The position numbers are program-made. A stretch of DNA of 64,000 bases from Escherichia coli (GTDB lineage: Bacteria; Pseudomonadota; Gammaproteobacteria; Enterobacterales; Enterobacteriaceae): NCBI RefSeq assembly GCF_024700885.2, contig NZ_CP117016.1. One strand, written 5' to 3'. Each line of letters begins with the position of its first letter. Position 1 is the stretch's first letter. Positions 15,701-18,700 of the stretch are shown here, one piece after another.

Positions 15701-18700
15701 CAATGAGTGATTTAACAGTAAATGATGTAATTCACCGGTCATCACGGTGCGAAAATCGTTGATTTGCTGGCTATCGGCCTGCACCCATTTGCAATGCGTA
15801 CCGGGCATGACATAAAGAGAGGAAGGAGCCAGAGCACGCGCGCCGATCAATTGTGTTTCTTCGCCGCGCATCACATTATGGTTATCGTCATGAGAGATGC
15901 ATAATCCGGGAATAATCCAGATATTGTCGCCAACCGACGTTAATTGATCGCTAATAGACGAAAAACGGGCAGGAACGGATAAATACGGCGCGACTTTCCA
16001 GCCGACATTGCTGCCGACCATTCCTGCCATTACCACTGGCGTATTCTCTTCACGCCAGTCGGTCGTCACTTCTGCTAACACCGCAGCCGGAGATTTTCCG
16101 TTCAGACGCGTGACGCCTGCTTCTGATTGCCTGCTGTCCAGGCAGTGGTCGCCCTGATAAAGCCAGGCGCGCAGATTGGTCGATCCCCAGTCAATTGCGA
16201 TGTAGCGAGCTGTCATGTGATTTCCTTTAACCTTCGTGTCGAGCTGGCGATCATGGTAAGCGCCGCCTGCTCTGCCGCATCGCCGTCCTGATGCCGTATT
16301 GCATCGAACAGCGTCTTATGTTCCTGGAGCGTTTGCGGCATGTTGGCCTCATCGCCCATCCAGGTTCGTTCAAAAACCGCCCGCTGCAACGAACTGATCG
16401 CAATGCTAAGTTGCTGTAACACCGGGTTATGCACCGACTGCAGCACCGCCTCGTGGTAGCGAATATCCGCTTCGTTAAACGCTTCGCGGTCCTGATTGTT
16501 GGCAATCATCTCGTTCAGCGCCGATTCAATCTGCGCCAGATCGCTGGAAGTCGCGCGTTCTGCCGCCCAACGGGCAATCGCCGGTTCCACCAGGTTTCGC
16601 ACTTCGCTCATGGCACTGATAAGCCGTGGGTCGTAGTCGTTTTCCAGCACCCATTGCAGTACGTCAGTGTCGAGGTAATTCCACTGGTTACGCGGTGCCA
16701 CAAACGCGCCGCGATAACGTTTCATTTCAATCAGCCGCTTCGCCATCAGCGAACGGAACACCTCACGGATGATGTTGCGCGAGGTTGCAAACTCTTCACA
16801 GAGCTCCGCCTCAGCCGGAAGTGGAGAGCCTGGTACGTATTTGCCGTGAACGATCTGTTTACCCAGCGTAATGACAATGCGATCGGTTTTATTGAGAGTC
16901 ATGGAGAGTCCTTGTGCTCTGTATGTTCTTCTCTACTTTACCCCGATCGATGCATAACGCGGCAACTTTGTAGTACCAGCGTGATGACGTTCGCGTTTGC
17001 TGTGCGTGTAATGTAGTACAAATTTATATTGTTGTACTACAATTTAGATCACAAAAAGAACAATGCATAAAAAAATGACATGCGTCGGGCAGAAATCTGA
17101 AAAGGGATGTCAGACGCTAAACAGGAGGGAAAGAAGAGTATGCTTTCAACGGCTTAGCTACTCGTTTAAAGGATTAATCATGAAGTTGAATTTTAAGGGA
17201 TTTTTTAAGGCTGCCAGTTTGTGTTCTTTGGCATTTGCGTTGACCGGATGTATCACCTGGGGATTGGTTTCCAATACTGCAAGCCGTCCACATGCCGAGC
17301 AATGGCGGTCAGATACGATTAAGGGTTTATCGCTGGCAGAGGATAGTAACGGTACGAAAGGCTATGTTTTTGTTGGTGAATCGTTGGACTATCTGTTGAC
17401 CACCGGCGGCGGTGAGGTGGTTAAAATGCTGAACGATCCGGCAATTCATGGTGAAAGAATCACCGTTTCTGATAACGCGAAATTTATTTTAAGCAGCAGT
17501 AATAAGAATTTCTCTGGTGCTATTACGCTCTATTACGACTGGAACAACGAAGAAGATAAGGCACTGGCAACACAATATGGTTTTATTTGTGATACCAGCC
17601 GTTGTACATGGATGCTGGACGGCCTGAAAGGCTCTATCCACCAGAAAAATAAAAAAGCGGATTACTCAAACGTGATGGTTTTCCATCAACCCTTTACGGT
17701 GGGATTTTATGAGTACAAAGCATCAGATGGCGTTCCGCGCGGCCTCGTTAATGCGCTGCTACCAGTCACTCTTACGCTGGATATAGTAACGTCACCACTG
17801 CAGTTCGTGATTTTATGCACTACCAGAAATTGTTAATCGCTGCGGGCAAACGCGTTTATACTGTTTGCCCGCCCACAGATTAATTCAACACAAACTTCTC
17901 AATAGCAAACGCGACGCCATCTTCAAGGTTGGATTTGGTGACAAAGTTCGCCACTTCTTTCACCGAAGGAATAGCGTTATCCATCGCCACACCGACGCCT
18001 GCATATTCAATCATTGCGATGTCGTTTTCCTGATCGCCAATCGCCATGATTTCTTCCGGTTTAATACCTAACACGTCGGCCAGTGATTTCACACCCGTAC
18101 CTTTGTTAACGCGTTTATCGAGGATTTCGAGGAAGTACGGCGCACTTTTCAGCACGGTATATTTCTCTTTCACTTCCTGCGGAATACGCGCGATAGCCTG
18201 GTCGAGGATGGCGGGTTCATCAATCATCATCACTTTCAGGAACTGGGTATTGGGGTCCATTTTCTCCGCTTCGCAGAACACCAGCGGAATAGTGGCAACG
18301 AAGGATTCATGCACCGTGTAGTAGCTGATATCACGGTTGGCGGTGTACAGCGTGGTGCGGTCCAGCGCGTGGAAATGAGAACCGACTTCGCGGGAGAGTT
18401 TTTCCAGGAAACGGTAGTCGTCATAGCTGAGAGCGGTTTGCGCCACGGTGCTACCATCGGCGGCCTTCTGTACCAGCGCGCCGTTATAAGTAATGCAGTA
18501 GTCGCCCGGCTGTTCCATGTGCAGCTCTTTCAGGTAATTATGAACACCTGCATAAGGGCGGCCCGTCGTCAGCACGACATTTACGCCACGGGCGCGAGCT
18601 GCGGCAATCGCATTTTTAACGGCGGGTGAAATGGTGTGATCGGGCAGCAGAAGGGTGCCATCCATATCGATAGCAATGAGTTTGATAGCCATGAGTTCCC

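What the first reader, a model, noticed from the sequence alone, without database searches (positions are those of the whole stretch)
16965..17036. Triple TGTAGTACA-type repeats upstream of dgoR
Three closely spaced copies of a FadR-type palindromic half-site pair sit in the roughly 280-bp region between dgoR and yidX, consistent with autoregulated, D-galactonate-inducible control of dgoRKADT. This is ordinary biology but not visible in the ORF track.
Basis: partly seen in the sequence, partly recalled or inferred. Interest (0 to 1): 0.15.

Follow-up and report, generated by a model that had tools for sequence, protein, structure and literature searches.

The report
Three DgoR operator sites upstream of dgoR
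The three short palindromes upstream of the E. coli galactonate operon are real binding-type sites for its own repressor DgoR; two are proven operators and the third was predicted years ago, so this is ordinary, known regulation.

Summary
The 277-bp dgoR-yidX spacer of this E. coli window holds three 11-mers of the type TTGTA-N-TACAA. They lie at 17032-17042 (10/10), 17011-17021 (9/10) and 16968-16978 (9/10). Simulated sequence never produced such a cluster (0 of 300).

The two upstream sites are the published DgoR operators IR1 and IR2. They overlap the class II CRP site and the -10 of the galactonate-inducible promoter, and they coincide with the Sort-Seq repressor footprint at -140 to -110.

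The third site lies outside that footprint, and the experimental papers I could read speak of "two inverted repeats". It is nevertheless listed as a third E. coli DgoR site in a 2015 comparative-genomics supplement.

Across 80 Enterobacterales dgoR loci, 74 carry the third site. It sits 43 bp (42-44) from IR2 and 32 bp from a conserved GTAAAGT motif, is about 90% conserved between poorly conserved spacers, and never matches the consensus perfectly.

It is most likely a weak auxiliary or autoregulatory operator beside the basal promoter, but that role is untested. Verdict: already known, low interest.

The parts
17032..17042 (-). IR1, the strong DgoR operator. In dgoR sense it reads TTGTAGTACAA, a perfect inverted repeat centred at -135 from the dgoR ATG. 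It overlaps the right half of the CRP site and the -35 region of the inducible promoter P1.
   Evidence: Sequence read. It matches the published IR1 oligonucleotide (PMC11705089) and lies inside the Sort-Seq repressor footprint at -140 to -110. It scores 10/10 in 70 of 74 species.
17011..17021 (-). IR2, the second DgoR operator. In dgoR sense it reads TTGTACTACAT, with one mismatch, centred at -114. Its last bases form the P1 -10 hexamer TACATT, which accounts for the mismatch.
   Evidence: The wild-type -10 is given as TACATT in PMC6003448. The site scores 9/10 in 70 of 74 species and always lies 21 bp from IR1.
16968..16978 (-). Site 3, a DgoR-type palindrome. In dgoR sense it reads TGGTACTACAA (9/10), centred at -71. 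By my inference it lies about +31 from the P1 start and ends 2 bp upstream of the TTGCCG -35-like hexamer of the basal promoter P2.
   Evidence: It is listed as a DgoR_ECO site (CACGCTGGTACTACAAAGTTG) in the PMC4494728 supplement. It is present in 74 of 80 species, 43 bp from IR2 in 67 of those 74 (42 bp in 5, 44 bp in 2). The mean majority-base fraction is 0.90, against 0.56 in the spacer upstream of it. The 11-mer was intact in every E. coli variant I sampled.
17035..17056 (-). cAMP-CRP site for class II activation of P1. The TGTGA half occupies 17049-17053, and the degenerate right half (TTGTA) is the left half of IR1.
   Evidence: PMC6003448 places the CRP site at -160 to -140 with a TGTGA logo. 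The block TTTTTGTGATCTAAA is conserved across genera. The exact 22-bp limits are my inference from the CRP consensus.
17010..17015 (-). P1 -10 hexamer TACATT of the D-galactonate-inducible, CRP-dependent promoter.
   Evidence: PMC6003448 together with the sequence. A start site near 17003 is inferred, not mapped here.
16935..16965 (-). P2, the basal RNA polymerase site seen in glucose. It has the -35-like TTGCCG at 16960-16965 and the -10-like TAAAGT at 16935-16940, separated by a 19-bp spacer.
   Evidence: PMC6003448 reports an RNA polymerase site between -30 and -70. TAAAGT has a majority-base fraction of 0.98, and GTAAAGT begins a fixed 32 bp from the site 3 centre in most species. The assignment of the hexamers is my inference. 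The simple consensus scan did not call this promoter.
17047..17050 (.). A GATC (Dam) site inside the CRP half-site TGTGATC, 5 bp from IR1.
   Evidence: Sequence read. It corresponds by position to the single hemimethylated GATC at -147 of Salmonella dgoR, which lies within a putative CRP site (PMC7708049).
16213..16902 (-). dgoR, which encodes the GntR/FadR-family repressor that recognises these sites. It is the first gene of dgoRKADT, which runs on to 12180.
   Evidence: ORFs, RefSeq annotation of an identical locus, and 228/229 residues identical to K-12 DgoR.

Best explanation
The three palindromes form the operator cluster of the D-galactonate repressor DgoR, a dimeric GntR/FadR-family protein, in the control region of its own operon dgoRKADT.

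Shown by others: without D-galactonate, DgoR dimers occupy IR1 and IR2. IR1 overlaps the class II CRP site and the -35 region of the inducible promoter P1. IR2 overlaps the P1 -10 hexamer TACATT. Binding therefore excludes CRP and RNA polymerase. D-galactonate changes the conformation of DgoR and releases the DNA.

Inferred here: the third site is a conserved but always imperfect, and therefore probably low-affinity, DgoR operator. It lies about 31 bp downstream of the P1 start and ends 2 bp upstream of the -35-like hexamer of the basal promoter P2. The centre-to-centre distances of 21, 43 and 64 bp are about 2, 4 and 6 helical turns, so all three sites face the same side of the helix.

I think site 3 most likely does one or both of two things. 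It may damp P2, and so basal dgoR expression, when DgoR is abundant. This would be negative autoregulation through a weak operator, like lambda OR3. It may also stabilise the IR1/IR2 complex or act as a roadblock to P1 transcripts.
For: - Identity of the locus.
- Match to the published operators: IR1 is identical to the published sequence, and 'IR2 has one mismatch'.
- Experimental footprint: Sort-Seq, DNA-affinity mass spectrometry and a dgoR deletion place repression at -140 to -110. CRP lies at -160 to -140, the P1 -10 is TACATT, and a second RNA polymerase site lies at -30 to -70.
- Chance: the cluster did not arise in 300 simulations.
- Prior prediction: site 3 was listed as a DgoR_ECO site in 2015.
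- Presence across species: 74 of 80 Enterobacterales loci have all three sites.
- Spacing: IR1 to IR2 is always 21 bp. IR2 to site 3 is 43 bp in 67 of 74 loci, 42 bp in 5 and 44 bp in 2. The site 3 centre to GTAAAGT distance is 32 bp in nearly all loci.
- Conservation islands: IR1 0.99, IR2 0.95 and site 3 0.90, against 0.56-0.59 in the spacers between the operators.
- Imperfection: site 3 scores 9/10 in 64 loci and 8/10 in 10, and never 10/10. The mismatch falls in either half-site. All 17 loci with A at position 8 have a non-T at position 2, and all 55 loci with T at position 2 have G or T at position 8.
- Within E. coli: 5021 genomes carry the 31-mer around site 3, and the polymorphisms I sampled fall outside the 11-mer.
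Against: - No experiment I could read shows DgoR on site 3.
- The Sort-Seq repressor signal is reported only at -140 to -110.
- The Reg-Seq authors consider that dgoR has no undiscovered sites.
- The group that characterised DgoR consistently describes two inverted repeats and uses a 55-nt probe that excludes site 3.
- P2 is visibly active in glucose with DgoR present, so any repression through site 3 is at most partial.
- The species are related, and the dgoR gene tree suggests only a few independent changes at site 3. The 'never perfect' pattern is therefore weaker evidence than the raw counts suggest.
- I could not read Singh et al. 2019, the primary operator paper. It may already address this site.
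Confidence: 0.85

Rival explanations
1. There are only two real operators. The third copy is a non-functional look-alike that DgoR does not occupy in the cell. Its conservation would be incidental, for example a relic of an ancestral duplication that has decayed slowly.
For: Experimental papers describe two inverted repeats. The Sort-Seq repressor signal covers only -140 to -110. Reg-Seq found no additional regulatory region at dgoR. Site 3 is always imperfect.
Against: A decaying relic would not stay at 0.90 conservation between spacers at 0.56. It would not keep its distance from IR2 to within 1 bp in 74 species. It would also not keep at least 8/10 matches while the position of the mismatch moves between the two half-sites. 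Sort-Seq used a plasmid reporter at 5-10 copies per cell. That could leave a weak site empty.
Confidence: 0.15
2. Site 3 is conserved as part of the basal promoter P2, not as a DgoR site. It could be an UP-like or extended -35-proximal element, or the binding site of a different regulator.
For: Site 3 ends 2 bp upstream of the -35-like hexamer, and its centre lies a fixed 32 bp from the conserved GTAAAGT motif. The reported RNA polymerase site reaches to -70 and so touches the site.
Against: What is conserved is the DgoR palindrome itself. The G of GT, the central TA.TA and the final CAA are conserved, and 74 of 74 loci keep G at position 3 and C at position 9. That is not expected of an A/T-rich UP element. 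The site is also held at a fixed distance from IR2 across a variable spacer. No other E. coli regulator with this motif is known to me; this last point rests on my own knowledge and was not tested.
Confidence: 0.08
3. DgoR bound at site 3 activates the basal promoter P2. The site centre is about -45 from the inferred P2 start. This would resemble FadR, which activates fabA from a -40 site, and would give positive rather than negative autoregulation in the absence of inducer.
For: The distance between site 3 and the P2 -10 is rigid. P2 has a poor -35 and a 19-bp spacer, which is typical of activator-dependent promoters. P2 is active in glucose, when DgoR is DNA-bound. That FadR-family proteins can activate as well as repress is established knowledge and was not tested here.
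Against: A centre at -45 is not a canonical class II position. The P2 start site is inferred, not mapped. No activation by DgoR has been reported, and dgoR deletion gives strong constitutive expression.
Confidence: 0.08
4. The third copy acts at the RNA level, as a structured element in the roughly 100-nt leader of the P1 transcript.
For: Site 3 lies inside the inferred P1 leader. The repeat finder pairs it with IR2 as a 13-nt inverted repeat.
Against: IR2 lies upstream of the inferred P1 start, so it would not be in the transcript. No Rfam family matches at E<=1. The leader folds no better than shuffled sequence (z = -0.70). RNAalifold finds no consensus pair in 25 species.
Confidence: 0.02

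Closest known systems
DgoR operators IR1 and IR2 of E. coli K-12 dgoRKADT (Singh et al. 2019, as cited in PMC11705089; Belliveau et al. 2018, PMC6003448)
   Same: Two of the three copies are these operators, base for base. The window differs from K-12 in this stretch only at two spacer positions, 17011 and 17033. The positions relative to CRP, the -35 region and the -10 are the same.
   Different: The experimental model has two sites. The window, like K-12, has a third conserved site 43 bp further downstream that this model does not include.
Comparative-genomics DgoR regulon (Suvorova, Korostelev and Gelfand 2015, PMC4494728, S1 File)
   Same: It lists all three E. coli sites, including CACGCTGGTACTACAAAGTTG, which is site 3. 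It also gives the FadR-subfamily motif with GT and AC separated by 3 nt.
   Different: It is a prediction only. No role, affinity or relation to the two promoters is given in what I read.
FadR operators of E. coli (fadBA repression, fabA activation)
   Same: The regulator belongs to the same subfamily. It is a dimer in which each monomer reads one half of a TnGT-N3-ACnA-type palindrome, and the effect depends on where the site lies relative to the promoter.
   Different: The half-site sequence and the effector differ. FadR sites are usually single, not an in-phase triplet.
Weak third or auxiliary operators of classical repressors (lambda OR3; lac O2/O3; gal OE/OI)
   Same: The architecture is similar. 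Strong operators lie over the regulated promoter, and a weaker, helically phased extra operator lies downstream or over the repressor's own promoter.
   Different: This is an analogy only. Neither cooperativity nor looping between DgoR dimers has been shown.

Membership tests
GntR/FadR-subfamily operator | An inverted repeat with a GT-N3-AC core within TKGT/ACMA boxes | tested here: met
   The motif definition comes from PMC4494728. In this window all three sites keep GT-N3-AC: TTGTAGTACAA, TTGTACTACAT and TGGTACTACAA. In many other genera site 3 has GC or TC in place of AC.
DgoR operator (E. coli) | Matches the DgoR-specific consensus TTGTA(G/C)TACA(A/T). The consensus is quoted from my memory of Singh et al. 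2019, and the IR1 sequence is confirmed. | tested here: met
   IR1 scores 10/10. IR2 fits through the A/T alternative at the last position. Site 3 misses at one position, the second base in dgoR sense, G instead of T.
DgoR operator (E. coli) | Lies in the control region of the dgo operon, next to the gene for the regulator | tested here: met
   All three sites lie 66-140 bp upstream of the dgoR ATG.
DgoR operator (E. coli) | DgoR binding that is released by D-galactonate, shown experimentally | not testable with these tools
   This is published for the IR1 and IR2 region. I found no experiment on site 3. The 55-nt EMSA probe excludes it, and the 250-bp probe of PMC7674646 includes it but was not dissected.
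DgoR operator (E. coli) | Conserved in orthologous dgoR upstream regions | tested here: met
   All three sites occur in 74 of 80 species at fixed spacing. Conservation is 0.99, 0.95 and 0.90, against 0.56-0.59 in the spacers.
Structured RNA leader or riboswitch | Conserved secondary structure, covariation, or an Rfam match | tested here: not met
   There is no Rfam hit, the fold gives z = -0.70, and there are 0 consensus pairs in 25 species.

The most novel reading that the evidence does not exclude
The third palindrome is a functional operator kept weak by selection. It would be physically coupled to the basal promoter P2, which would explain the fixed 32 bp to its -10. It would be phased with IR1 and IR2 at 21, 43 and 64 bp. 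DgoR would then run a two-promoter, three-operator circuit. Strong sites would switch the inducible promoter. A weak site would set the repressor's own basal level, or, less likely, activate it. The current two-site model of this much-studied GntR/FadR regulator would then be incomplete.
Probability: 0.5. Interest if true: 0.3.

Novelty: already known. Interest (0 to 1): 0.15.

Why it matters
DgoR is currently the best-studied sugar-acid regulator of the GntR/FadR family. [quoted passage not shown]

For the genome scan, the finding only confirms that a known operator cluster can be recognised from raw sequence.

The one useful residue is that experimental models use two operators. Comparative data, both from 2015 and from this analysis, show a third site that is positionally rigid and always sub-optimal, beside the basal promoter. 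Testing it would be cheap. It could refine quantitative models of this promoter, but it would not change the overall picture of D-galactonate-inducible autorepression.

Tried and rejected
- Simple sigma-70 scan of 16850-17250. It called neither published promoter on the dgoR strand, since both are non-consensus. It gave only one unrelated hit inside yidX, so it was of no use for placing P1 and P2. I placed them from PMC6003448 and from conservation.
- RNA readings. The Rfam scan, the single-sequence fold and the alignment fold were all negative.
- Primary literature. I tried to read Singh et al. 2019 by PMC id and by DOI, but it is not held. The Belliveau et al. supplement is not held either, so I could not see the base-resolution expression shifts over site 3. 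A full-text search for 'DgoR' with 'IR3' found nothing.
- Other papers. The genomic SELEX, RegulonDB v12 and 2025 Reg-Seq follow-up papers mention DgoR only in lists.
- A fourth DgoR target in the window. I considered the identical 11-mer TTGTACTACAT at 28121-28131. I rejected it because it lies inside a coding sequence, which I read as yidC from the translation without checking annotation. About two such matches per 64 kb are also expected by chance.
- Binding of site 3 by a PdhR- or LldR-like regulator, suggested by its TGGT half. I rejected this because other genera have TTGTACTGCAA or TTGTACTTCAA at that position.

Full report
**What is in the sequence**

The window is E. coli chromosome. 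A 1.7-kb query around the finding matches 5424 of 5426 complete E. coli genomes, with dgoR, dgoK, a YidX-family gene and yidA annotated under the match. The RefSeq annotation of an identical locus gives dgoT-dgoD-dgoA-dgoK-dgoR on one strand and yidX divergent from them.

In window coordinates dgoR is 16213-16902 on the minus strand and yidX starts at 17180. The spacer is therefore 277 bp.

Reading the spacer, the pattern search and the repeat finder show three copies of a 9-bp palindrome. They are TGTAGTACC at 16969-16977, TGTAGTACA at 17012-17020, and TGTACTACA at 17033-17041.

Extended to the 11-mer TTGTA-N-TACAA, the sites are 16968-16978 (9/10), 17011-17021 (9/10) and 17032-17042 (10/10). 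Their centres lie at -71, -114 and -135 from the dgoR ATG.

**Is it more than chance?**

At 9/10 or better the 64-kb window has four 11-mers, and three of them are these sites. Markov simulations give 1.9 +/- 1.4 per 64 kb, and none of 300 simulations put three within 80 bp. The fourth, at 28121, lies inside a coding sequence.

**Comparison with published work**

PMC11705089 gives IR1 as 5'-CTAAATTGTAGTACAACAATAT-3', which is the reverse complement of window 17027-17048. It states that IR1 is a perfect inverted repeat and IR2 has one mismatch. It also states that DgoR dimers bind these two closely spaced repeats overlapping the D-galactonate-inducible promoter, and that D-galactonate releases the DNA.

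Belliveau et al. (PMC6003448) reported the following:
- A repressor footprint at -140 to -110 from the start codon, which is window 17012-17042. It was lost in a dgoR deletion and in D-galactonate, and DgoR was recovered by DNA-affinity mass spectrometry.
- A class II CRP site at -160 to -140 with a TGTGA logo.
- A non-optimal -10 hexamer, TACATT.
- A separate RNA polymerase site at -30 to -70 that is seen in glucose.

These map as follows. TGTGA is at 17049-17053, with the degenerate CRP right half formed by the left half of IR1. TACATT is at 17010-17015, inside IR2, which explains the single mismatch in IR2.

Two of the three copies are therefore experimentally established operators.

**The third copy**

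Site 3 lies outside the Sort-Seq repressor footprint and outside the 55-nt EMSA probe. The experimental papers I could read speak of two repeats. The Reg-Seq authors count dgoR among promoters without undiscovered sites.

It is not a new observation, however. The S1 file of Suvorova et al. 2015 (PMC4494728) lists three DgoR_ECO sites for b4479. The third is CACGCTGGTACTACAAAGTTG, which is exactly site 3.

I could not obtain Singh et al. 2019 or the Belliveau supplement. I therefore cannot exclude that site 3 was tested there.

**Comparative test**

I retrieved 80 dgoR loci, one per species, from Enterobacterales.

- *Presence.* All three sites are present in 74 of the 80 loci.
- *Spacing.* IR1 to IR2 is always 21 bp. 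IR2 to site 3 is 43 bp in 67 loci, 42 bp in 5 and 44 bp in 2. By contrast, the distance from site 3 to the ATG ranges from 65 to 74 bp.
- *Conservation.* In an alignment of 79 upstream regions, the mean majority-base fractions are IR1 0.99, IR2 0.95, site 3 0.90 and the TAAAGT -10-like hexamer 0.98. The IR1-IR2 spacer gives 0.59 and the IR2-site 3 spacer 0.56. Site 3 is therefore a phylogenetic footprint in its own right.
- *Link to P2.* Its centre lies a fixed 32 bp from the conserved GTAAAGT motif in nearly all species.
- *Within E. coli.* 5021 genomes carry the 31-mer around site 3, 3655 of them identically. The variants I sampled differ only outside the 11-mer.
- *Distant relatives.* The more distant Affinibrenneria, Izhakiella and Limnobaculum have no 11-mer scoring 8/10 or better at the site 3 position. 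The 2015 supplement lists two sites for Pectobacterium in the passages I saw.

**Site 3 is never perfect**

IR1 is 10/10 in 70 of 74 species. Site 3 is 9/10 in 64 and 8/10 in 10, and never 10/10.

The mismatch is either at position 2, as in TAGTACTACAA or TGGTACTACAA. These variants occur in the Escherichia, Salmonella, Klebsiella and most Citrobacter loci. Or it is at position 8, as in TTGTACTGCAA or TTGTACTTCAA, which occur in Enterobacter, Buttiauxella and others.

The two states exclude each other. All 17 loci with A at position 8 have a non-T at position 2, and all 55 loci with T at position 2 have G or T at position 8.

On the dgoR gene tree these variants form a few blocks, so the number of independent events is small. 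The pattern suggests selection for a weak site but does not prove it.

**Mechanism**

*Shown by others.* DgoR on IR1 and IR2 blocks CRP and RNA polymerase at P1, and D-galactonate releases it.

*Inferred here.* With TACATT at 17010-17015, the P1 start should be near 17003. That puts IR1 at about -34, IR2 at about -13 and site 3 at about +31.

The basal RNA polymerase site at -30 to -70 fits a -35-like TTGCCG (16960-16965) and a -10-like TAAAGT (16935-16940) with a 19-bp spacer. Site 3 ends 2 bp upstream of that -35-like hexamer, and its centre is about -45 from the inferred P2 start.

The centre distances of 21, 43 and 64 bp are close to 2, 4 and 6 helical turns.

My preferred reading is a weak third operator that limits basal, P2-driven dgoR expression when DgoR is plentiful. 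It may also stabilise the repression complex or block P1 transcripts.

*Against a strong effect.* P2 is visibly active in glucose, and no repressor signal at -76 to -66 was reported. That assay used a multicopy reporter, which could leave a weak site unoccupied.

*Rival readings.* The alternatives are a non-functional look-alike, a P2 promoter element, or an activating site for P2. An RNA element is essentially excluded: there is no Rfam match, the fold gives z = -0.70, and there are no consensus pairs in 25 species.

**Verdict**

Two sites are textbook-level knowledge for this operon, and the third has been a published computational prediction since 2015. The novelty class is 'already known' and interest is low (0.15). 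The only open point is whether, and how, the conserved weak third site acts. A few simple experiments would settle this.

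Noticed in passing
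window 17180-17836 (+), yidX: The YidX protein encoded here is only 61% identical to K-12 YidX (130 of 213 aligned residues). By contrast, the adjacent spacer is 98.6% identical and DgoR is 99% identical. The divergence starts right after the first 12 residues. The identity bands for a query covering dgoR, the spacer and yidX (>=99% in 24 records, 95-99% in 1864, 80-90% in 3136) suggest several sharply distinct yidX allele classes in E. coli, and this one is rare.
   Followed up: partly
window 16213-16902 (-), dgoR codon 197: DgoR differs from K-12 by a single change, A197T. The change lies two residues after H195, which PMC7674646 places beside the bound Zn2+ and D-galactonate. It is not among the 12 natural DgoR variants named in the text of PMC12288454.
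   Followed up: partly
L002 (E. coli O157:H7 strain 9234), locus 2387-2636: In O157:H7, dgoR, dgoK, dgoA, dgoD and most of dgoT are deleted, together with all three operators. Only a dgoT remnant is left between cbrA and yidX. About 400 of 5424 genomes match only the yidX-proximal half of the spacer.
   Followed up: partly
L003 (plasmid NZ_CP081712.1), locus 586-4170: A 75-kb E. coli plasmid carries a second, diverged dgoR-dgoK-dgoA-dgoD copy with IS1-family transposase genes within about 1.2 kb on either side. It has IR1- and IR2-like sites (TTGTAGTACCA and TCGTACTACTA). At the site 3 position it has TTGAACTTCAA, which is still a perfect palindrome but has lost the GT/AC core.
   Followed up: partly
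window 17047-17050: A GATC (Dam) site lies inside the CRP half-site TGTGATC, 5 bp from IR1. By position it is the GATC reported as hemimethylated at -147 of Salmonella dgoR and linked to ON/OFF heterogeneity (PMC7708049). E. coli has a second GATC at 16945-16948, between the P2 hexamers.
   Followed up: partly
window 28121-28131: TTGTACTACAT, identical to the IR2 11-mer, occurs inside a coding sequence (translation ...[12 protein letters not shown]..., apparently yidC). I take it as a chance match, since about two are expected per 64 kb.
   Followed up: yes
window 16891-16910: A 10-nt direct repeat straddles the dgoR start codon. In dgoR sense it reads GACTCTCCAT followed by GACTCTCAAT. The leader part (CACAAGGACTCTCC) is invariant across Escherichia, Salmonella, Citrobacter and Enterobacter but varies in more distant genera. 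Its significance is unknown.
   Followed up: no
L087 (E. coli O43 str. RM10042), spacer alignment A2: This strain has TATGATC instead of TGTGATC in the CRP half-site of the dgo promoter. That change might weaken CRP activation of dgo in that lineage.
   Followed up: no
L015, L018, L022 (Salmonella, Klebsiella, Citrobacter), upstream of the CRP site: In these three genera the conserved control module begins at ATTGTnnTTTTTGTGATCTAAA, directly after a terminator-like hairpin (CCCGCG...CGCGGGTTTTTTT). Their sequence further upstream does not align with the E. coli yidX-side spacer, so the divergent yidX arrangement may be specific to Escherichia. I did not check the annotation of those loci.
   Followed up: no
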